Positions 4,713 to 12,206 of a stretch of 27,200 bases of DNA are shown in pieces; position 1 is the first letter of the stretch, and each line of letters opens with the position of its first letter. The stretch spans positions 1 through 27,200 of the forward strand of contig JAJRDJ010000090.1 in assembly GCA_028678445.1 (NCBI GenBank). The letters run 5' to 3'. The position numbers and the translations under genes are program-made. Source of the DNA: Methylococcaceae bacterium (GTDB lineage: Bacteria; Pseudomonadota; Gammaproteobacteria; Methylococcales; Methylococcaceae). The notes under the pieces were generated by a model, which saw nothing but the letters and a program-made list of their open reading frames with translations, did not search any database and was not told the origin of the DNA.

Positions 4713-4896
4713 GGCTTGAAATGTCTAATCGGGTTGTAAGTGAATCCCTCAATCCACGGTGACTGCATACAGGAGACTCAACAGGGCCATCCTGGTTTCT
4801 GACTTGGGCGGTCGAGATTGCAGTTTCTCTTGCAAGTGCAAGCAGCCACTTACCATCATCAAGCCGAACGCTTTGATAGCAGCGGAGGAAAAGCCA

Positions 4897-6552
4897 TTGC
4901 GGGATTTTCTGTGGATAGTGAGCGTCTGTGTTCTCTATCTGACGACAGCCAAACTCGGGCTAGCCTATGCTGTTGTCGGCCAAACAGTTACGTTGTTTTG
5001 GCCCCCCAGTGGCATCGCCCTTGCCGCAACCCTGATGGGCGGCTATCGCGTGTGGCCAGGCATCGCCTTGGGCGCCCTCATCGCTAACGCCGGGACCGAC
5101 GTACCCCTCGTCACCCTATCCATCATCACTTTGGGCAATACCTTGGAACCATTAATCGGAACCGTATTGCTCAAACGCCAGAACAACTTTTCGGATACCT
5201 TGGACAAGGTATCCGATGTGCTCGCGCTGGCCCTGTTCGGCTCTGTCGTCAGCACGATCGTGAGCGCTTCGTTTGGCATGCTGGCGCTGTTTGTCGGCGG
5301 AGAGATAGCTTTTGCCGATATTGGGCCAACCTTCTTGACCTGGTGGCTTGGGGATGGTTTGGGCATAATCCTGGTCAGCCCGATTCTTCTTACCGGGGTT
5401 GCCGCAATCCGCGTGATCCCGGTGAAGATGTCGTCCACGAAGGCCATGGAAGCTTTGGCCTTGTTGCTTGCCTTGACAGTGGTCGGTCAAGCAATCTTCG
5501 GTAATCCAAGATTTGCTGGTCTAGGCTATTTCCCGGTCTCCTTGTCAATGTTTCCGTTTGCCATCTGGAGCGCGCTTCGGTTCGGAACTTTCGGGGCCGC
5601 CAGTGTGGCTCTTCTTGTATCCCTCATCGCCATCCATGGCACAGCGCAGGGTACTGGCCCGTTCGCGACGGATTCAGCGATGGAGAGCCTGATCCGCGGG
5701 TGCGTGTTTGCCGACATCATGGCAATCACCGGACTCCTCTTGGGGACCGTCAGTGCCGAACGGGCAAAAGCGCTGGCGACATTAAAGAGTTGCAATGAAG
5801 ATCTGGAAGAGCGAGTGCGAGTACGTACCGAAGAACTCACTCGCGCCAACCGGGAACTGCAAAAAGCGTTAACCGAGCGCCGCCGCCTGGAGCAGGTAAT
5901 GAATGAGATCAGTGAGGCCCGGCTAAAAATTATTGGTCAGGAATTGCATGATGGTTTAGGGCAACAGCTCACCGGGATTTCCTTTATGGTTAGCTCCCTG
6001 ATCCAATTGCACATGACCACCCCGACACCGGAAATTCCCGCCGTCCGTCAAATCGAGCAGTTTCTCGGCGAAGCGATAGCCATGGTCCGTTCACTGTCAC
6101 GCGGGCTTTATCCCGTCGCGCTGGAAACGGGCGGTCTGGCATCTGCCCTCAACCATCTTGCGGGACACGCACACGGCTTTTCTGGAATCCAGTGCGATTT
6201 CAGTTGTACGAATGGCCTGCATTCGCTGAGCAAAACCACGGCACTGAACCTGTATCGCATTGCTCAGGAAGCTGTCAGCAACGCCTTGCGGCATAGCCAA
6301 GCGCAACGGATCGACATCAGGCTTTCGAAAGTGGAAGATCAATACGTGCTATCGGTCGAGGACAACGGCAACGGTTTCCGCGTCCAAAACCCGAAGACCA
6401 ACGCAACGCTGGGTTTGCGCAGCATGCAGTGCCGAGCCGATCTCATCGGGGCGGCGATCGAAATCCGGAAGAACCAGGACGGCGGCACGTCAGTCCTGGT
6501 TACCGGTCCTATTAACTCGGAGGGTCAGGACCTTGTCCAGCGAATCCAATGA
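4897..6552 (+). CDS. MASE1-domain sensor histidine kinase (HisKA_3/NarX-UhpB type)
   Basis: MASE1 pattern LYLTTAKLGL...LFWPPSGIALA plus many TMs. Coiled coil, H-box QELHDGLGQQL, N-box EAVSNALRH, G-box DNGNGF. Start placed at TTG 4897 (GGAGG 8 nt upstream) rather than the ORF-track GTG 4759. Confidence 0.9.
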   Translation: MRDFLWIVSVCVLYLTTAKLGLAYAVVGQTVTLFWPPSGIALAATLMGGYRVWPGIALGALIANAGTDVPLVTLSIITLGNTLEPLIGTVLLKRQNNFSDTLDKVSDVLALALFGSVVSTIVSASFGMLALFVGGEIAFADIGPTFLTWWLGDGLGIILVSPILLTGVAAIRVIPVKMSSTKAMEALALLLALTVVGQAIFGNPRFAGLGYFPVSLSMFPFAIWSALRFGTFGAASVALLVSLIAIHGTAQGTGPFATDSAMESLIRGCVFADIMAITGLLLGTVSAERAKALATLKSCNEDLEERVRVRTEELTRANRELQKALTERRRLEQVMNEISEARLKIIGQELHDGLGQQLTGISFMVSSLIQLHMTTPTPEIPAVRQIEQFLGEAIAMVRSLSRGLYPVALETGGLASALNHLAGHAHGFSGIQCDFSCTNGLHSLSKTTALNLYRIAQEAVSNALRHSQAQRIDIRLSKVEDQYVLSVEDNGNGFRVQNPKTNATLGLRSMQCRADLIGAAIEIRKNQDGGTSVLVTGPINSEGQDLVQRIQ

Positions 6553-7210
6553 CAACCAGGCGAAGGCCAGGATTCTGATTGTCGACGACCACCCCATCGT
6601 GCGGCAGGGGGTGGCGCAAATGGTCAATCTTCAAGCTGATCTGCAACTCTGCTGCGAGGCTGGCAACGCCGAAGAAGCCCTGATCGCAGTAAGCCGTTGC
6701 CATCACGATTTGGTAATCGTCGATATTTCCCTCCAAGGCGTTTCTGGATTGAACCTTATCACTACCCTCAGGGCACGCTATCCCCAACTCCCTATCCTGG
6801 TCATGAGTTTCCACGAAGAAGCCCTTTACGCTGAACGCACATTGCGACTGGGTGCGAAGGGTTACATCATGAAGCATCAGGCTACCTTAAACATCCTGTC
6901 TGCAATACGCCGCATCCTGGAGGGGGGTATCTATCTGAGCGATGACATGCATAGCCTGATCATGGAACGCATCAGTTCCCGCTCTTACGAGCCGGGCATC
7001 GCCGACCCCGTCGCCAGCCTCACCAACTGCGAGTTCGAAGTACTACGGCTGGTCGGGTTTGGGTTAGGCACCCGGCGGATCGCCGAAAAACTCAACAGAA
7101 GCGTCAAGACCATCGAGACGCATCGCACCAATATCAAGGAAAAACTAGGTCTCAAGACCGGAGCAGAATTGGCTCGCTTCGCGGCTTTTTGGGTTGAAGG
7201 ACAGGACTAG
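6533..7210 (+). CDS. NarL/FixJ-family response regulator (REC + LuxR-type HTH)
   Basis: ILIVDDHPIVR, phospho-Asp in LVIVDISL, GYIMK, HTH SLTNCEFEVLRLVGFG...SVKTIETHRTNIKEKL. TTG start at 6533 follows GGAGGG and overlaps the kinase stop. Confidence 0.92.
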   Translation: MSSESNDNQAKARILIVDDHPIVRQGVAQMVNLQADLQLCCEAGNAEEALIAVSRCHHDLVIVDISLQGVSGLNLITTLRARYPQLPILVMSFHEEALYAERTLRLGAKGYIMKHQATLNILSAIRRILEGGIYLSDDMHSLIMERISSRSYEPGIADPVASLTNCEFEVLRLVGFGLGTRRIAEKLNRSVKTIETHRTNIKEKLGLKTGAELARFAAFWVEGQD

Positions 7211-7385: not shown

Positions 7386-7799
7386 ATGTCCAATAACACC
7401 CTCATCAATGATCATCGCCGCCGCTTATTAAAGACCGGCCTCGTGAGCCTGACCTTGGCTCCCGCCGCGAATCTTCTATTCAACCGCCGTGCAGAAGCGC
7501 GTGGCAGCCGAGCGGTTACCGGGGTTTCAACCGAGATACCCAAACTCCCGGAAACCGACCGGCAAGCAATAGCGCTGGGTTATAAGGAGGACGGCGCTAC
7601 AGTTGACACATCCAAATTTCACAAGGCGGAAGGGGCGTCTTGCAGTAATTGCCAGCTTTACAGCGGTTCAGAGGAAGATGCGTGGGGACCCTGCGCCATT
7701 TTTTCCTATCGCATGGATCAGAAGCTAAACAGAAACTATGTGGTCAGCGCCAAAGGTTGGTGCCGATCCTGGGGACCGAGGGCGGGAACAAAAAGCTGA
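7386..7799 (+). CDS. High-potential iron-sulfur protein (HiPIP) with Tat signal peptide
   Basis: GGAGG RBS. Twin-arginine HRRRLLK, hydrophobic core and AEA cleavage site. Four-Cys pattern CSNC...WGPC...GWCRSW and ALGYxED motif. Confidence 0.88.
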   Translation: MSNNTLINDHRRRLLKTGLVSLTLAPAANLLFNRRAEARGSRAVTGVSTEIPKLPETDRQAIALGYKEDGATVDTSKFHKAEGASCSNCQLYSGSEEDAWGPCAIFSYRMDQKLNRNYVVSAKGWCRSWGPRAGTKS

Positions 7800-7815
7800 G
7801 GATCAGCGCCTGATC

Positions 7816-10800
7816 ATGGTTGCCTTCTTGGCGCTAAGACTGCTCCTTCTCGCGGGACGACATGCCGCCCTTTGGTTGCCCTCCATACCCCTTTACTGCA
7901 TGAGTGCCGTAGAACGTTTCGGCAACTCCCGGCGACTATTATGGGAATTGATATGGAATGGGCGATCCCGGGTTCCCGGATGGTTGCTTTGTGGACAACG
8001 AATCATCCCCGAGGCCATCGCCGGGGCAACCTGGATAGCCTCCGAGCGGGGACTCCTCGCCACGCCGGCTGACAGCCTCGGGCCTTGTGGATGGGTCCTG
8101 CTAGGGGGGATGGCCCTACGGCTTGGACTTTTCGCGGCAGTTCTCCTCCACGAAGCTGGACACGCGGCAGTCGCCGCCATCATCACCCCGGGCTACTGGA
8201 GCGGTAGTTTCCTTGAGGGCCTTGCCGACACCCGAGCGCGGATTGCCTTGCGGAGCGTCCTTCCCGCGCAACGAATTTTCATACCGGGATTTTCTCCGGT
8301 GCCCGAAGCACCCTCCGTCCCGGCACCCGCCCGGGGCTGGCGTACTAGCGTGACTGCCCTGGCAGGACCTTTGTTCAATGTATTGACGGCACTGTCGCTG
8401 TCACAACTCCTCCCCGAAGGGCCCCTCATTGATCTCCTGAGTGTAGCCATCACGGCACTCATCGCCGGCCAGGTGCTCGGGTTGCTCACCTCATGGAGCG
8501 ATTTTGAGACCACCTGCACAGGTTCCGCAGTCCGGCTTTTCTGTGGGAACGTAGTTGTTTTAGGGAAAGTTAATCGTGCCTCCCCGGCGCAAGCTCACGC
8601 CAGTCGTGAACGAAGAATGTGGTGGCAAATCGTCGTGCGGGGCGGGCAATCCGGTGGACGTTTCATTCTGACGAAAAAGGGGTTCATCGGTTGGAAAGGG
8701 CTGAACCCGAAGCGGGCCAAATTGCCCTTGACGGTGGATAGAAATTACCGGCTGGCACGGTTTTGGGCTCGGATCCGGGGTGTCCGACCCTTGGAGGGTA
8801 TCTATCAAACCCAAAGCCACGTGCGCTTCGCCACCAGCGGAGCCTCGACTCAAAACACCACGCAACCCCTGTCCTGGCGGCCTGCCCACACCGCCAGGAG
8901 GTGGTGCATCAACGAGGGACGACTCACGAAATCCTGGATGACCCAGCATCACCTTTTTTGCTTCAACGGGGACATTGACGCTTGGGTGAGGGCGGCTGAC
9001 GACCCTGCCCTGCGGGTGAATCTGTTCGGGACCGTTTGGAGCGGGCCGGAACTTCAGCGCCTGCTCACCAAGATCCTCGGTGCAAAGCCGGCGGGCTGCG
9101 ACCCGGATGGGCTCATCCGCACCGATACCATTCTCGGCGCCGGAATTCAGGAAGTATTGCTTACCCAGGGCCGTTGGGGGGATTCTTTCCGGATGGCTTT
9201 TGCCCTGAGCGTGGCGGAGAACCCCGAGCATTTGGACCTCCTCACGGACGCAGTTGTCCGGGAGTTCGATGCTGTCGGTGACGAGGTCTTCCGGTGGTGG
9301 CTGGAGGAAAATAAAGTCAGTGCGGTGGGATGCAGGACCCTGTCAGACCTATCCGACAAGGCCGCCCCGCATCTGGACGGTCTGATCCAAGCCCTTGAGA
9401 AAAAATCACTCTCCATCCGGGGTTTGAAGGGACGGCTGGACCAATCCAAGCGCGGCGCACTGATCCGTGCCTGCGTCGATGGTTTCTTCCATAATGACCT
9501 GCGCGAGGCCGCCAGGGGTTTCGCGGAATACGCCCGGGGTACTTTCGCCGCAGTGTTGCAGTCCTCACTCTATCCAGGGGAGGTGTCGCTGATTTCCTTC
9601 AAGCAACCACTCTACATCGGCGTCCACGCCGCGGAAGATCCAGAAGAGGATTTCCTGGTCGTGGCCTCGGAAACGGCATCCGTGTTCGTGTCCGGCAATC
9701 CGGGCCCAGACGCTCAGCCGCAGCGGCCGGCCTACCTCTACCTGATGCGGGACGGAGAATTGGCGCATATTCATTTGCACCCCGGCACCGCCCGTTCCAC
9801 CATCAGCTTCCGGGACGGCTTTTCCCGTGGGGATCCGGAGACTACACAAACCCTGACCCCCTCCCACCTGGACGACTGGACGCGCCGTTCTGAAACAGGT
9901 GGTGGGCGAGGCTGGGTATCCCTGGGGCCCTCCAATCCCTACTTTCAGGACAAGCTCCCCATGCTCGGGGTCCGAGATCCCGTGCGGGAGGGCTTGGATG
10001 GAATCCCCGCGCTCATCGCCAGTATTCAAACATCCTGGGAAGATGCTTCCTCCCTCAACCGCCGGACCGCCGAGGCGTTCACCCGCTTCATCCTAACCCG
10101 TGCCCTGAGAGCCGAGGCGGTTTCACACCAGACCGGAGGACCCGCGCAGAACGCCCAGCTCGACCTGCTGATCCTGGGGGCCGGGGAGAGTTTGGTGCTG
10201 GCCGGGGCGTTCGCCGAGGATTTGCGGCGGCTATTCCCGAAACTCCATGTCCTGTCGCTGGATTCAAAGACCTTCGCCACCGCGCCAGAGAGCATCGCGG
10301 TCGGACCGGACACCGTCGTGTTGGGGGTGAGCCATTCTGGACAATATTTCAATACGCTGGACGATGTGAAATTTCTCCGGGCCGTTCACGAGTGCGGCGG
10401 GTGCGGGCCGGTTTTTGCCTTGACCGGTCAGATTGCTACGCTACTGGGGCAAGCCGTCGGGCAAAGCTTTAAGGCAGGCGCACCCTTCGGTGAACGCATC
10501 TTCACCGACGGAGCTGGCTGGCGGCTGGAAGAGCCGCACGGCCTCACCACCGTCGCGGCCCACTTCACCTTGAGTCAACTTCTACTCCGGCTCGCGGAAG
10601 CCGCGAATAGAGGGGATTCCCGGGCTGGGCTGGGCGTCTCCAACGACGACCTTCAATTCCTTCGCTCCCGGATTGGGGAAAGCGGGGCTAAAGCCGAGGA
10701 AATAACGGGATGCACCGCGAAAGGCTACCGTTTGGGAAGCCCGATGCACCGGAACCTGCAGAGAGAGGGACGATGGCTATCTTGGTTCCTCATCGAGCCA

Positions 10801-11907
10801 TTGGCGGTCTCCGTGCTGAGCGTCTTGCACCTCGCCGTCGTGTTTTTCCTTGGGGTCAATCCTGTCACCCTGGCGATGAAAACCCTACCCGATGCCTGGG
10901 TAAACGTGGCCTCACCCGCGCTTTGGTCTTGCGTGCTCGTCTACGGCCAGGTGGCCTATTTCTTCCTCATGGCCCCGGTGATTATCGCGCTGCTCATGCG
11001 GCTCATCATGGGTCGCCCGCTTGCCGACCGTTTTACCGGACGGAACCTTTACATCGCCGATCGAGGATGGGTGGCGACCTTGACGGAATCGTTCGTCAGG
11101 AGGCTCTTCGCCCTTGGGTATGGCTTCTCCGGATTCCAGGATCCGAAATCCGGCGACATCGTCGCGGGATTCATCGATGCCGTGGCCCCCAGCATCACTC
11201 GCGGGGACGTCCTCGTTAAGGGCATCCCGGTGGATGACCGTGTCCGCGCCACCACCACCATGGTCTCCACACAACTGCGCGGCGGCCCCAGCCTAAACCA
11301 AAGCGCCTATGCCGTCGGCATTGGTCAGGAGAATTCGTCAAGGCACAAGTTCCACCGTTTCGTGTCGGTGGGTGGTGCGCCGCGCGCCAGCGGTAGAGTC
11401 AGCGCGACGGGCCGCCAAATCGATGAATCCCGAACCTCGGCGCTCTACCGCCTGATCGGTCATTACGTGATGTTCCACAACCTGGCCTCACGCGTTCGAT
11501 CGGCGGTCAACAGAATTCTGCCGTTGATCAACCTCATTGGCGCTCCGGTGTTCTTGCTGATGTATCTCCTCAGCCTGGGCCGTTGGCGGATTTGGTTTCG
11601 TTCCTGGGATATCGCCGAGACACAGAGCCGGGCCAACATTTTCACCACCTCGGTGGCGCCGCCTATTGCCCTTCGGTCCGACCATTACCGGCCCTTGTTG
11701 TGGGAACCCACCGTTGCCCGGCGCGATAGTTCGGAGGTATGGGATCAGGTCATTTCTTCTACCGCGACGGGTGTCCGCGCCTTCATCTCTCCGACGCAAA
11801 TCCCGGGCCTGATGGGAAGAAAAGGAAGCGTTTGCCAGAAATCCATCGTATGTCATGCAGAGCAGGCAACAGGCGGGGTTGGTGGCGCGGGAGTTGGCCA
11901 GCGGTGA
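7816..11907 (+). CDS. Large multidomain protein: HExxH M50-like peptidase + class-II glutamine amidotransferase + SIS (GlmS-like) + TM helices
   Basis: HEAGH (nt 8149-8163) and ALAGPLFN. Internal FCGN (Cys at nt 8542), VRGGQSGG, HVRFATSG, FNGDI and RTDT mirror GlmS MCG/RGYDSAG/HTRWATHG/HNGII/TDTE. SIS motif VSHSGQYFNT. Two hydrophobic helices at about 10780-11010. Start uncertain (7738, 7816 or 7900). Confidence 0.7.
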   Translation: MVAFLALRLLLLAGRHAALWLPSIPLYCMSAVERFGNSRRLLWELIWNGRSRVPGWLLCGQRIIPEAIAGATWIASERGLLATPADSLGPCGWVLLGGMALRLGLFAAVLLHEAGHAAVAAIITPGYWSGSFLEGLADTRARIALRSVLPAQRIFIPGFSPVPEAPSVPAPARGWRTSVTALAGPLFNVLTALSLSQLLPEGPLIDLLSVAITALIAGQVLGLLTSWSDFETTCTGSAVRLFCGNVVVLGKVNRASPAQAHASRERRMWWQIVVRGGQSGGRFILTKKGFIGWKGLNPKRAKLPLTVDRNYRLARFWARIRGVRPLEGIYQTQSHVRFATSGASTQNTTQPLSWRPAHTARRWCINEGRLTKSWMTQHHLFCFNGDIDAWVRAADDPALRVNLFGTVWSGPELQRLLTKILGAKPAGCDPDGLIRTDTILGAGIQEVLLTQGRWGDSFRMAFALSVAENPEHLDLLTDAVVREFDAVGDEVFRWWLEENKVSAVGCRTLSDLSDKAAPHLDGLIQALEKKSLSIRGLKGRLDQSKRGALIRACVDGFFHNDLREAARGFAEYARGTFAAVLQSSLYPGEVSLISFKQPLYIGVHAAEDPEEDFLVVASETASVFVSGNPGPDAQPQRPAYLYLMRDGELAHIHLHPGTARSTISFRDGFSRGDPETTQTLTPSHLDDWTRRSETGGGRGWVSLGPSNPYFQDKLPMLGVRDPVREGLDGIPALIASIQTSWEDASSLNRRTAEAFTRFILTRALRAEAVSHQTGGPAQNAQLDLLILGAGESLVLAGAFAEDLRRLFPKLHVLSLDSKTFATAPESIAVGPDTVVLGVSHSGQYFNTLDDVKFLRAVHECGGCGPVFALTGQIATLLGQAVGQSFKAGAPFGERIFTDGAGWRLEEPHGLTTVAAHFTLSQLLLRLAEAANRGDSRAGLGVSNDDLQFLRSRIGESGAKAEEITGCTAKGYRLGSPMHRNLQREGRWLSWFLIEPLAVSVLSVLHLAVVFFLGVNPVTLAMKTLPDAWVNVASPALWSCVLVYGQVAYFFLMAPVIIALLMRLIMGRPLADRFTGRNLYIADRGWVATLTESFVRRLFALGYGFSGFQDPKSGDIVAGFIDAVAPSITRGDVLVKGIPVDDRVRATTTMVSTQLRGGPSLNQSAYAVGIGQENSSRHKFHRFVSVGGAPRASGRVSATGRQIDESRTSALYRLIGHYVMFHNLASRVRSAVNRILPLINLIGAPVFLLMYLLSLGRWRIWFRSWDIAETQSRANIFTTSVAPPIALRSDHYRPLLWEPTVARRDSSEVWDQVISSTATGVRAFISPTQIPGLMGRKGSVCQKSIVCHAEQATGGVGGAGVGQR

Positions 11908-12025
11908 GAGCTTTGCTGCATAACGGGTTGTCGCGGCACCGGTCCCGTCAGGAGGCTACACGGTAGTCTCAGCGGTCGAGCAACCGATTGGGATATCCCG
12001 GCACACGGCTGACCTTTGTTTTTTT

Positions 12026-12160
12026 GGAGGTGGGTCGAATAGGTTGATATCGACTGGAGGAGGCTCTTCATCCTGGGGGGCGGGCGTCTCGCCCGCCGGC
12101 GGGCCAGGCGGCCCGCCCCCAACTGGAGTTCGTGACCATCAATCAGTTTGACCCACCTCC
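12026..12160. mobile_element. MITE-like non-autonomous element (135 bp)
   Basis: Terminal inverted repeats GGAGGTGGGTCGAA / TTTGACCCACCTCC (13/14; 19/23 when extended). Identical 8-bp flanks GTTTTTTT at 12018-12025 and 12161-12168. Internal GC-rich stem (12076-12085 with 12111-12120). No ORF. Confidence 0.6.
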
Positions 12161-12206
12161 GTTTTTTTTTTTGCGCGAAGGGAATCCTTTCTCCCGGGAG
12201 TGAGTT

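What the first reader, a model, noticed from the sequence alone, without database searches (positions are those of the whole stretch)
7816..11907. Protease-capped amidotransferase: M50-like HExxH domain fused in front of an internal Ntn catalytic Cys of a membrane-bound GlmS-like enzyme
Seen: HEAGH + AGPxxN + SD within hydrophobic segments (nt ~8100-8500). Immediately after comes F-C-G (Cys at 8542) and the full set of class-II GATase motifs (RGGQSGG, HVRFATSG, FNGDI, RTDT), then a SIS motif and TM helices. Established: class-II (Ntn) amidotransferases such as GlmS and PurF need this Cys at the free N-terminus. Bacillus PurF obtains it by propeptide removal, and M50/S2P proteases use HExxH plus a distal Asp. 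No start codon precedes the Cys, so Met excision cannot expose it. Inference: the enzyme is made as a zymogen and activated by autoprocessing or by its own fused membrane protease, which would make a signal-gated aminosugar or amidation enzyme. I know of no characterised protein with this architecture.
Basis: partly seen in the sequence, partly recalled or inferred. Interest (0 to 1): 0.8.

Follow-up and report, generated by a model that had tools for sequence, protein, structure and literature searches.

The report
Protease-capped membrane GlmS-like amidotransferase
This gene encodes a large membrane protein in which a site-2-protease-like domain sits directly in front of the catalytic cysteine of a very divergent glucosamine-6-phosphate-synthase-like enzyme, so the enzyme probably has to be cut to become active; it belongs to a large family that nobody has studied.

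Summary
The ORF 7738/7816..11907 (+) carries HEAGH (8149-8163), AGPLFN (8362-8379), SWSD (8491-8502) and an internal F-C-G-N (Cys269, 8542-8544).

Pfam and NCBIfam find nothing in the whole protein. Deeper tests do:
- **Core.** A confident AlphaFold model (pLDDT 88) matches full-length GFAT1/GlmS (Foldseek E 1e-17, TM 0.70-0.76). Profile-profile alignment to GlmS gives 97.8% probability and puts Cys269 on GlmS Cys1.
- **N-terminal domain.** Residues 86-262 have the M50/S2P fold. All four M50 structures rank 1-4 of 48,161 chains, and hhalign gives 90%.
- **Family.** It has at least 543 representative clusters, all unnamed or "hypothetical". Of 105 representatives classified, about 73 carry an M50-type cap, 3 carry an unrelated Rce1/CPBP-type intramembrane protease motif set in the same position, and 12 start Met-Cys.

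This supports a masked nucleophile that must be released by cleavage at F268|C269.

The main caveat is that the catalytic Glu is Gly (HGxxH) in 15-17 representatives, including the nearest relatives. Class-II amidotransferase propeptides are also known to self-cleave. The agent of cleavage is therefore undecided between the M50 site in cis (my lean) and self-cleavage. The "signal-gated" idea and the aminosugar product have no support.

Another first-stage note (e1-5333690) covers the C-terminal half of this same gene.

The parts
7816..11907 (+). Gene for the capped amidotransferase. The ORF is open from 7738. The likely start is ATG 7816, with ATG 7900 as the alternative. The stop is at 11905-11907.
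   Evidence: ORF list and translation. The 16-nt gap after the HiPIP stop matches L001 and L002. An in-frame 3-nt deletion at 7856 in one metagenome is consistent with coding. The Atlas record starts at residue 55.
7993..8523 (+). M50/S2P-fold membrane domain, residues 86-262, with four predicted TM helices.
   Evidence: VIA-align ranks RseP (two entries), SpoIVFB and MjS2P 1-4 of 48,161 chains. Atlas shape search: most rows are Peptidase_M50. The AFDB Swiss-Prot top 4 are M50 proteins. hhalign against small M50 proteins gives Prob 90.1, E 1.6e-6. Pfam M50 is only E 0.019, below its cut-off.
8008..8013 (+). P91-E92, the 'PE' motif on the helix before the HExxH helix.
   Evidence: Present in 16 of 16 HGxxH representatives that have enough upstream sequence, but in only 7 of 15 HExxH ones with enough upstream sequence; another 14 HExxH representatives are too short upstream to score. 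That this Glu substitutes for the catalytic Glu is inference only.
8149..8163 (+). HEAGH, the candidate zinc-binding and catalytic motif (H138, E139, H142).
   Evidence: DNA read directly. Both His are invariant in the 28-sequence N-domain alignment. The second position is E, or G in some branches; in five representatives the first His is Asn, giving NExxH.
8362..8379 (+). AGPLFN, which corresponds to the M50 'AGPxxN' helix.
   Evidence: hhalign aligns it with AGPaxN of small M50 proteases.
8491..8502 (+). S-W-S-D255, the candidate third metal ligand at the cytoplasmic end of the last cap helix.
   Evidence: Asp is nearly invariant. It lies exactly 14 residues before the Cys in 16 of 17 HGxxH representatives and 12-20 residues before it in most HExxH ones.
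8539..8544 (+). F268|C269, the predicted maturation site. Cys269 is the Ntn nucleophile homologue.
   Evidence: The family 'yCGnfg' aligns on M1-C2 of human GFAT1 and on M-C of GlmS. Cys is present in 67 of 68 aligned representatives, and the 68th is misaligned by two residues. Residues 264-268 have pLDDT below 50 in the full model.
8542..9909 (+). Class-II (Ntn) glutaminase domain, residues 269 to about 724, with a helical insertion at about 436-598 (nt 9043-9531).
   Evidence: Foldseek and hhalign. Invariant R301, G302, Q304, H361, N410, G411 and D463, which correspond to GlmS R26, R73 region, N98-G99 and D123.
9970..10737 (+). First SIS subdomain, residues about 745-1000. The phosphate-binding loop S865-H-S-G-Q-Y-F-N-T is at 10330-10356.
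   Evidence: Foldseek matches to GlmS/GFAT isomerase domains. hhalign aligns the loop with SQSGETADT. S867-G868 are nearly invariant.
10741..11025 (+). TM hairpin inserted between the two SIS subdomains, residues about 1002-1096.
   Evidence: Hydropathy and long helices 918-954 and 976-1007 in model numbering.
11035..11382 (+). Second SIS-like subdomain, residues about 1100-1215. It contains the family motif corresponding to GlmS 'LKLKEISY', here RRLFALGY.
   Evidence: The beta-alpha pattern in the model. Whole-GlmS structural match with TM by target 0.70-0.76. The residue mapping is not significant.
11404..11904 (+). C-terminal long helix and TM segment (residues 1223-1282), then a poorly conserved tail (1283-1389).
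   Evidence: The tail is not conserved in homologues.
7386..7799 (+). HiPIP gene immediately upstream, probably co-transcribed.
   Evidence: Pfam HIPIP E 5e-17. The same arrangement and 16-nt spacing occur in L001 and L002. No terminator-like site lies between the two genes.
4759..7210 (+). MASE1 histidine kinase (4759-6552) and NarL-type response regulator (about 6550-7210). They lie next to the HiPIP/amidotransferase pair in all three genomes.
   Evidence: Pfam.

Best explanation
The gene encodes a polytopic inner-membrane precursor.

**Shown by fold, profile and motif evidence**
- Residues about 86-262 form a four-helix domain with the site-2-protease (M50) fold and a His138/His142/Asp255 metal site. 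In this protein the motif is an intact HEAGH.
- Fourteen residues after Asp255, on the cytoplasmic side, comes Cys269. It is the exact homologue of the N-terminal nucleophile of GlmS.
- A complete but very divergent GlmS-type enzyme follows: a class-II glutaminase domain and two SIS subdomains. It is anchored by an inserted TM hairpin and a C-terminal TM helix.

**Inferred**
- Class-II glutaminases need the free alpha-amino group of this Cys. The precursor is therefore inactive and must be cut between F268 and C269.
- The cut is most likely made, or assisted, in cis by the adjacent M50-type metal site.
- The cut would release the cap and leave a membrane-bound glutamine-dependent amidotransferase.
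- The acceptor substrate is unknown. It is probably a phosphorylated sugar-like compound at the membrane, and probably not plain fructose-6-phosphate.
For: **Core enzyme**
- AlphaFold model of residues 85-1280: pLDDT 88.2, pTM 0.81.
- The 31 best Foldseek PDB hits are all full-length GFAT1/GlmS: E 1.1e-17, TM by target 0.70-0.76 for 25 of them; the six chains of the 3ooj C1A mutant give 0.43-0.45.
- Family profile against PDB sequences: GFAT1 at E 5e-4, with the family Cys on GFAT1 Cys2.
- hhalign of the family against a GlmS alignment: Prob 97.8, E 7.9e-13, 527 columns, with F-C on M-C.
- The glutamine-site residues are invariant.

**Cap**
- The four M50 structures in the PDB set rank 1-4 of 48,161 chains: Z 8.4, 7.3, 6.5 and 6.4, rmsd 3.0-3.5 Å.
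- Atlas and AFDB Swiss-Prot top hits are M50 proteins.
- hhalign gives Prob 90.1.
- The His/His/Asp residues are conserved, and the Asp-to-Cys spacing is near-constant.

**A free N-terminal Cys is the functional state**
- 12 of 105 representatives start Met-Cys.
- P0076 has an in-frame stop three codons before ATG-TGC, on three contigs.

**A protease is what is needed at this position**
- In P0017, P0019 and P0026 the segment before the Cys instead carries the EExxxR / FxxxH / HxxxN motifs of Rce1/CPBP intramembrane proteases. The last His lies exactly 16 residues before the Cys.
- Pfam Rce1-like scores above its cut-off for P0019: 23.0 against 22.4 bits, E 1e-4.
- hhalign gives P 2.4e-4, while the cross-controls give P 0.3-0.75.

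**Other**
- The linker 264-268 is the least confident stretch of the model.
- In the cap-only model, R266-F268 forms one of only two short strands, the other being 193-195 in the TM1-TM2 loop. That would resemble substrate strand addition in S2Ps. It is weak and is not reproduced in the full model.
Against: - The catalytic Glu is replaced by Gly in 15-17 representatives, including all four closest homologues at 62-63% identity. E and G have interchanged at least four times on the tree. These HGxxH proteins keep every glutaminase residue, so they must mature without a canonical M50 general base.
- Class-II amidotransferase propeptides are described as autocatalytically removed (PMC7056826, PMC9140057).
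- Some representatives have an internal Cys but no recognisable protease motif: 5 "none" and 12 with short extensions. Several of these are truncated gene calls.
- Pfam M50 is below threshold (14.8 against 27.2 bits).
- Foldseek against the PDB gives no significant hit for the cap alone.
- I could not read model coordinates, so the distance between the metal site and the F268-C269 bond was not measured.
- There are no protein-level data.
Confidence: 0.45

Rival explanations
1. The architecture is the same, but maturation is Ntn-type self-cleavage, as in MEROPS family C44. The thiol of Cys269 attacks the F268-C269 bond through an N-to-S acyl shift. The M50-like domain is not the maturase. It could be a membrane anchor or metal-binding pseudoprotease, or a separate small S2P released as a second product of a polyprotein.
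For: - The literature states that class-II GATase propeptides are autocatalytically cleaved. One example is AtGPRAT2, matured to Cys87 even when expressed in E. coli (PMC7056826; PMC9140057).
- It explains the HGxxH variants and the repeated E/G switching.
- It explains representatives with an internal Cys and no recognisable protease motif.
Against: - It does not explain why both His and the Asp are invariant, or why the Asp-to-Cys spacing is fixed at 14.
- It does not explain why only Gly, and never other residues, replaces the Glu.
- It does not explain why an unrelated intramembrane protease type sits at the same position in another branch.
- Known C44 propeptides are short, not 180-2,000-residue membrane domains.
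Confidence: 0.3
2. No maturation occurs. The protein is primarily a site-2-type intramembrane protease acting on another substrate. The GlmS-like cytoplasmic module is a metabolite-sensing regulatory domain, analogous to the CBS or PDZ domains of other S2Ps, or a non-catalytic scaffold.
For: - S2Ps commonly carry fused regulatory domains (general knowledge). Atlas M50 clusters with CBS, TPR or zinc-finger domains illustrate this.
- The gene lies next to a two-component system.
- The equivalent of the isomerase base E488 seems to be absent (not significant).
Against: - The GlmS-like core, not the cap, is the conserved hallmark of the family. There are 543 hits, many without a cap, and 12 representatives start Met-Cys.
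- Every glutaminase catalytic residue is invariant.
- The cap's Glu is dispensable in many lineages.
- No anti-sigma or sigma gene is adjacent.
Confidence: 0.12
3. The cap's metal site ligates the Cys269 thiolate, as in a cysteine switch, and holds the enzyme latent or redox- or metal-gated. Cleavage would be secondary. The HiPIP and two-component neighbours would then point to redox control in this clade.
For: - The His/His/Asp residues are conserved, with fixed spacing to the Cys, in both the E and the G variants.
- HiPIP is coupled upstream in three genomes.
Against: - This is pure inference, with no structural measurement behind it.
- HiPIP is periplasmic, whereas the site is cytoplasmic.
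- The HiPIP link is absent outside this clade.
- The alpha-amine would still have to be free for catalysis.
Confidence: 0.08

Closest known systems
GlmS / GFAT1 (glutamine--fructose-6-phosphate aminotransferase; PDB 2j6h, 1jxa, 6svp)
   Same: It has the same three-domain fold: a class-II Ntn glutaminase domain and two SIS subdomains. The nucleophile Cys, the R26, R73, N98-G99 and D123 equivalents, and the S-x-S-G-x-T phosphate loop all align.
   Different: - About 10% identity, and no hit to TIGR01135 or to Pfam GATase or SIS models at threshold.
- The Cys is internal, behind a membrane domain.
- A helical insertion of about 160 residues sits in the glutaminase domain.
- A TM hairpin lies between the SIS subdomains, and there is a C-terminal TM helix.
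- E488 and H504 equivalents are not found (weak).
- The genome also has an ordinary glmS (849 bits).
Site-2 proteases of family M50 (RseP 7w6z/9j83, SpoIVFB 8vjl, MjS2P 3b4r, Rip2)
   Same: It shares the core helices with HExxH, AGPxxN and a distal Asp. These structures give the best structural matches, and hhalign gives Prob 90.
   Different: - It is fused in front of an enzyme instead of a PDZ or CBS module.
- The NxxPxxxxDG motif is reduced to N...S-x-S-D.
- The catalytic Glu is variable (E or G), and the first His is Asn in five relatives.
- It scores below the Pfam threshold.
- The presumed substrate is its own chain.
Propeptide-bearing class-II amidotransferases (B. subtilis PurF, plant GPRAT2; MEROPS C44)
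   Same: The catalytic Cys is made internal and must be exposed by cleavage (PMC7056826, PMC9140057).
   Different: Those propeptides are short and soluble, and are reported to self-cleave. Here the "propeptide" is a folded intramembrane-protease-like domain of about 180 residues, preceded in some relatives by 1,000-2,000 further residues.
Rce1/CPBP intramembrane proteases (Pfam PF02517)
   Same: In relatives P0017, P0019 and P0026 the cap carries the three CPBP motifs and sits in the same place before the Cys.
   Different: The window's protein is not of this type (hhalign control Prob 0.2). It matters only as a parallel case within the family.

Membership tests
Peptidase M50 (site-2 protease) | HExxH inside a transmembrane helix | tested here: met
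   HEAGH at residues 138-142 lies within hydrophobic segment 117-150.
Peptidase M50 (site-2 protease) | Third metal ligand Asp in a later TM helix (NxxPxxxxDG motif) | tested here: inconclusive
   Asp255 is nearly invariant, with a conserved Asn about 10 residues before it in most relatives (the window's own protein has Gln at that position). The P and G of the motif are absent. A global hhalign places the two motifs about 3 residues out of register.
Peptidase M50 (site-2 protease) | M50 core fold | tested here: met
   VIA-align ranks 1-4 of 48,161 chains are the four M50 structures, Z 6.4-8.4. Atlas and AFDB Swiss-Prot top hits are M50 proteins. Foldseek against the PDB is not significant.
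Peptidase M50 (site-2 protease) | Sequence-profile membership (Pfam PF02163 gathering score) | tested here: not met
   14.8 bits against a cut-off of 27.2, E 0.019, and only when the domain is scanned alone. The six-frame scan of the own genome found no match. Profile-profile hhalign does give Prob 90.1.
Peptidase M50 (site-2 protease) | Catalytic Glu conserved among orthologues | tested here: not met
   HGAGH in the four nearest homologues that cover this segment. Counts are 53 HExxH, 15-17 HGxxH and 5 NExxH among representatives, with at least four E/G changes on the tree.
Peptidase M50 (site-2 protease) | Zinc-dependent peptide-bond hydrolysis | not testable with these tools
   Needs expression, mutants and inhibitors.
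GlmS-type class-II (Ntn) amidotransferase | Nucleophile Cys homologous to GlmS Cys1 | tested here: met
   Cys269 aligns to Cys of M-C-G-I in GFAT1 and GlmS. Cys is present in 67 of 68 aligned representatives.
GlmS-type class-II (Ntn) amidotransferase | The Cys is the first residue of the mature protein | not testable with these tools
   In the gene it is residue 269, or 243 counted from ATG 7816, and is preceded by Phe. The mature N-terminus needs protein chemistry. Twelve relatives do start Met-Cys.
GlmS-type class-II (Ntn) amidotransferase | Glutamine-site residues (GlmS R26, R73, N98-G99, D123) | tested here: met
   R301, R363, N410-G411 and D463. R301, N410, G411 and D463 are invariant in the 66-sequence alignment and R363 is nearly so.
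GlmS-type class-II (Ntn) amidotransferase | Two SIS subdomains with the S-x-S-G-x-T phosphate loop | tested here: met
   Whole-chain structural match to GlmS/GFAT1. The SHSGQYFNT loop aligns with SQSGETADT.
GlmS-type class-II (Ntn) amidotransferase | Isomerase catalytic residues (E. coli E488, H504, K603) | tested here: inconclusive
   The best alignment puts Ala on E488 and a gap on H504, but it is not significant (Prob 0.1). It leans towards not met.
GlmS-type class-II (Ntn) amidotransferase | Curated model thresholds (TIGR01135; Pfam GATase_6/7, SIS) | tested here: not met
   No hit at E<=1 for the whole protein. SIS scores E 0.25 on the isolated segment. It should therefore be filed as a distant paralogue family, not as GlmS.
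MEROPS C44 self-processing precursors | Short N-terminal propeptide removed autocatalytically | not testable with these tools
   The extension is a folded membrane domain, not a short peptide. Autocatalysis cannot be tested here.

The most novel reading that the evidence does not exclude
A large, unstudied family of membrane-embedded GlmS paralogues uses a built-in intramembrane protease as a single-use maturase. The protease is M50-type in most branches and Rce1/CPBP-type in at least one. It cuts its own chain to unmask the N-terminal nucleophile of the amidotransferase. That would be a new way to activate an Ntn enzyme and a new job for intramembrane proteases. In HGxxH lineages the general base would have moved to the conserved Glu of a 'PE' motif on the neighbouring helix.
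Probability: 0.35. Interest if true: 0.85.

Novelty: new variant of a known kind. Interest (0 to 1): 0.74.

Why it matters
- **New role for intramembrane proteases.** They are known as signalling enzymes that cut other proteins. A fused, cis-acting copy that matures an enzyme would be a new role and a new route to the free N-terminal nucleophile that all Ntn enzymes need.
- **A natural experiment.** The family offers HExxH, HGxxH and NExxH variants, a CPBP-type replacement, and uncapped Met-Cys forms. Together they make the question directly testable.
- **An unannotated family.** It has at least 543 clusters at 50% identity. It occurs in methanotroph-like Gammaproteobacteria, Cyanobacteria, Omnitrophota and others, and is invisible to Pfam and NCBIfam.
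- **A possibly unknown reaction.** A membrane-embedded GlmS-like synthase with a divergent isomerase site points to a glutamine-dependent amination at the membrane that has not been described.

Tried and rejected
- **Direct Pfam and NCBIfam scans** of the whole protein and of ten relatives found nothing.
- **Single-sequence PDB search** gave only a chance-level hit. BLASTP against the genome's own GlmS was not significant, although the two best local matches fell on the correct motifs.
- **Foldseek against the PDB** with the cap alone gave no significant match; MjS2P appeared only at rank 3, E 0.75.
- **hhalign of the cap against RseP-type M50 proteins** with a PDZ insert gave only Prob 20.8.
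- **Gene neighbourhood as a clue to function.** HiPIP and the MASE1/NarL system are conserved only in the three Methylococcaceae-like genomes. More distant members have unrelated neighbours.
- **Distribution among relatives.** The protein was not found in 60 other genomes sampled from the same order, including two of the same genus. Its distribution is therefore patchy.
- **Mapping of the isomerase catalytic residues** was not significant.
- **CPBP cap profile against PDB sequences** gave no hit. NCBIfam gave only weak CPBP hits, and a further homologue search added no new CPBP-capped members.
- **Fusion artefact or frameshift** is rejected. The same architecture recurs in dozens of representatives from unrelated sources.
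- **Literature.** No paper combines an intramembrane metalloprotease with a class-II amidotransferase.
- **Model coordinates** could not be read, so no distances were measured.

Full report
**1. What is in the sequence**

The region holds one long ORF, 7738..11907 on the + strand, 1389 codons.
- HEAGH is CAC GAA GCT GGA CAC at 8149-8163.
- AGPLFN is at 8362-8379 and SWSD at 8491-8502.
- TTC-TGT (F268-C269) is at 8539-8544.
- RGGQSGG, HVRFATSG, FNGDI, RTDT and SHSGQYFNT follow further on.

The codon before the Cys is Phe, so Met excision cannot expose it. Hydropathy gives TM-like segments at residues 25-47, 117-150, 228-254, 1014-1048, 1061-1096 and 1256-1282.

The likely start is ATG 7816. It lies 16 nt after the stop of an upstream HiPIP gene, the same spacing as in two related MAGs. 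ATG 7900 is an alternative.

**2. Standard annotation fails, but the protein is not an orphan**

Pfam, NCBIfam and a single-sequence PDB search give nothing for the whole protein.

A word-indexed search finds five close relatives at 62-64% identity. Two of them are in Methylococcaceae MAGs.

An exhaustive profile search finds 543 representative clusters at E<=1e-3, of which 131 are at E<=1e-30. They range from about 140 to 5,926 residues. Where sources give a name, it is "hypothetical protein", or an automatic label for another domain of the same protein. The best AlphaFold DB cluster hit is labelled only "Glutamine amidotransferase type-2 domain-containing protein". Ten relatives scanned against Pfam gave no hit for the shared region.

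**3. The core is a GlmS-like enzyme**

With a 66-sequence alignment, AlphaFold2 gives a confident model of residues 85-1280: mean pLDDT 88.2, pTM 0.81.
- Foldseek against the PDB returns full-length human GFAT1 and E. coli GlmS as the 31 best hits. The values are E 1.1e-17, and TM by target of 0.70-0.76 for 25 of them over chains of 608-663 residues; the six chains of the 3ooj C1A mutant give 0.43-0.45. Isomerase-domain-only entries and PurF follow.
- A family profile against PDB sequences finds GFAT1 at E 5e-4. The family's "yCGnfg" lies exactly on M1-C2-G-I-F, and two further collinear segments match.
- hhalign of the family against a GlmS alignment built from this genome and its relatives gives Prob 97.8, E 7.9e-13 over 527 columns, again with F-C on M-C.

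In the 66-sequence alignment, R301, G302, Q304, G307, R326, H361, N410, G411 and D463 are invariant. R363, T366, S867, G868 and others are nearly so. From the GlmS literature (my knowledge), these correspond to R26, R73, N98-G99 (oxyanion hole), D123 and the phosphate loop.

The genome also has an ordinary glmS (849 bits against TIGR01135). This gene is therefore an extra, divergent paralogue.

Relative to GlmS it has three additions:
- a helical insertion of about 160 residues in the glutaminase domain;
- a TM hairpin between the two SIS subdomains;
- a C-terminal TM helix.

By motif alignment the equivalent of the isomerase base E488 is Ala, and H504 falls in a gap. That alignment is not significant. 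I therefore treat the acceptor chemistry as unknown.

**4. The N-terminal domain has the M50/S2P fold**

Scanned alone, it gives a sub-threshold Pfam M50 hit (E 0.019, 14.8 bits against a cut-off of 27.2).

A separate model of residues 55-275 has pLDDT 83.5. Its search results are:
- Foldseek against the PDB: not significant.
- VIA-align against 48,161 representative chains: ranks 1-4 are Kangiella RseP (Z 8.4, rmsd 3.0 Å, 118 residues, 20% identity), Aquifex RseP (Z 7.3), SpoIVFB (Z 6.5) and M. jannaschii S2P (Z 6.4). These Z values are modest for a helical domain. However, these are the M50 entries in that set, and they stand together at the top.
- AFDB Swiss-Prot: the top four hits are the M50 proteins Rip2 and sll0528.
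- Atlas shape search: 7 of the 10 listed rows are Peptidase_M50 or site-2-protease clusters.
- hhalign of a 28-sequence alignment of the cap against small M50 proteases taken from related genomes: Prob 90.1, E 1.6e-6, covering the HExxH helix through AGPxxN.

In the cap alignment, R128, H138, H142, C269 and G270 are invariant. P91, P176, D255 and G262 are nearly invariant.

**5. Family comparison: the point that decides how to read the fusion**

*Location and context of the Cys.* I located the Cys in 105 representatives by motif and classified what precedes it:

| Class | Representatives |
|---|---|
| HExxH, 85-210 residues upstream | 53 |
| HGxxH (two more) | 15 |
| NExxH | 5 |
| Rce1/CPBP-type motifs | 3 |
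| Start Met-Cys | 12 |
| Extension shorter than 117 residues | 12 |
| None recognisable | 5 |

Several of the short ones still carry the S/T-D motif and look like truncated gene calls. By my estimate, HExxH is expected in well under 1% of such 125-residue windows by chance.

*The Met-Cys forms are real, at least in one case.* P0076 has an in-frame TGA three codons before ATG-TGC, on three contigs from three runs. In this family, a free N-terminal Cys is therefore a natural state.

*A second, unrelated protease type.* The three CPBP-type proteins (P0017, P0019, P0026; 2,387-3,348 residues) share invariant EE..F, F..YH and H...N motifs. The last His is exactly 16 residues before the Cys.
- P0019 passes the Pfam Rce1-like threshold: 23.0 against 22.4 bits, E 1e-4, covering profile positions 4-93 of 93.
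- hhalign against CPBP proteins from related genomes gives P 2.4e-4, Prob 44.
- The cross-controls give P 0.75 (CPBP-type cap against M50) and P 0.3 (M50-type cap against CPBP).
- I rate the CPBP assignment as probable, not certain.

Two unrelated intramembrane protease types at the same position, plus uncapped Met-Cys forms, are what one expects if the job at that position is to cut the chain in front of the Cys.

**6. The complication**

It is partly met.
- All four nearest homologues that cover the segment read HGAGH. Thirteen to fifteen other representatives also have Gly.
- On a maximum-likelihood tree of the glutaminase domain, E and G interchange at least four times. The window's protein (E) is nested as (P0009 E, (P0007 G, (window E, (P0003 G, P0005 G)))).
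- Only Gly replaces Glu. Both His and the Asp stay. In the HGxxH class the Asp-to-Cys spacing is exactly 14 in 16 of 17.
- All 16 HGxxH representatives with enough upstream sequence carry a Pro-Glu motif on the preceding helix, against 7 of 15 HExxH ones. A relocated general base is possible. This is inference, and it is confounded by shared ancestry.
- The HGxxH proteins keep every glutaminase residue, so they must mature by some route that does not need the canonical Glu.
- The literature says class-II amidotransferase propeptides are removed autocatalytically (PMC7056826; PMC9140057).

Self-cleavage is therefore a serious rival.

**7. Population and expression data**

The stretch occurs in wetland, freshwater, sediment and biofilm metagenomes from 16 studies.
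- In one independent 2017 run, all seven differences in the contig covering 8043-8780 are listed. None touches the Glu139 or Cys269 codon.
- Another run has a synonymous change in the His142 codon and an in-frame 3-nt deletion at 7856.
- A sediment metatranscriptome holds two short contigs at 9803-10052. This is only weak evidence of transcription.

**8. Context**

HiPIP lies directly upstream, and a MASE1 histidine kinase and NarL-type regulator are adjacent. Both features are conserved in the window and in the two MAG loci, next to ligA-zipA-smc. More distant family members have unrelated neighbours.

The protein was not found in 60 other genomes sampled from the same order, including two of the same genus. 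The distribution is patchy. The HiPIP link is specific to this clade and remains unexplained.

**9. Verdict**

- **Architecture.** It is established as far as computation allows: an M50-fold cap, then the Ntn Cys 14 residues after the cap's Asp, then a membrane-embedded GlmS-like enzyme.
- **Need for cleavage.** That the precursor must be cut at F268|C269 is a strong inference, about 0.75. It rests on the known chemistry of Ntn amidotransferases and on the Met-Cys members.
- **Agent of cleavage.** This is open. I lean to the cap's metal site acting in cis (0.45), because of the conserved ligands, the fixed spacing and the parallel CPBP cap. Self-cleavage (0.3) explains the Gly variants more simply.
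- **Unsupported parts.** "Signal-gated" and "aminosugar" are unsupported.
- **Filing.** By the membership tests it should be filed neither as GlmS nor as a standard M50 protease. It is a distinct, unnamed family related to both.

Noticed in passing
window 7386-7816; L001 7439-7992; L002 5630-6081: The HiPIP gene stops exactly 16 nt before the start of the large gene in all three genomes. A MASE1 kinase and NarL-type regulator pair is always adjacent. The HiPIP/large-gene pair is inverted relative to ligA-zipA-smc between the window and L001. It is unexplained why a periplasmic electron carrier is coupled to this enzyme.
   Followed up: partly
window 7816-7990 (residues 27-84): The window's protein has about 57 extra N-terminal residues, with one more predicted TM helix (25-47), that the 63%-identical homologues lack. 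One metagenome carries an in-frame 3-nt deletion at 7856.
   Followed up: partly
window 11035-11382 (residues about 1100-1215): In the second SIS-like subdomain the family motif 'sKLFalSY' (here RRLFALGY) lines up with GlmS 'LKLKEISY'. This puts Ala where GlmS has the isomerase base E488. The family's 'NPxDHxVHR' motif is lost in the window's clade. The alignment is not statistically significant.
   Followed up: partly
relatives P0017, P0019, P0026 (not in the window): Giant relatives of 2,400-3,350 residues carry Rce1/CPBP-type motifs (EExxxR, FxxxH, HxxxN) instead of the M50-type cap. The motifs end 16 residues before the Ntn Cys.
   Followed up: yes
relatives P0090, P0106, P0112, P0123, P0149 (not in the window): A third cap variant reads NExxH: the first His is replaced by Asn and the Glu is kept. 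It occurs in proteins of 2,150-5,926 residues.
   Followed up: partly
relatives P0007 (L053), P0051, P0149: Some family members have 1,000-2,000 further residues in front of the cap, with no Pfam match except a 2'-5' RNA ligase domain in P0051. P0007 is flanked by toxin-antitoxin genes (PemK, BrnT/BrnA).
   Followed up: no
genome G000 (whole assembly): The six-frame scan for Peptidase_M50 found no match in the window's own genome. RseP is therefore missing from this assembly, which is 83% complete, although 12 of 12 relatives have it.
   Followed up: no
protein P0006 (homologue from ENA): One close homologue looks frameshifted in two places (alignment columns about 935-1100 and 1340-1400). It is probably an assembly error or a broken copy.
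   Followed up: no
window 11922-11924: Two single-base deletions just after the stop codon appear in two independent metagenomes, at the edge of the element that another note calls a MITE (12018-12168).
   Followed up: no
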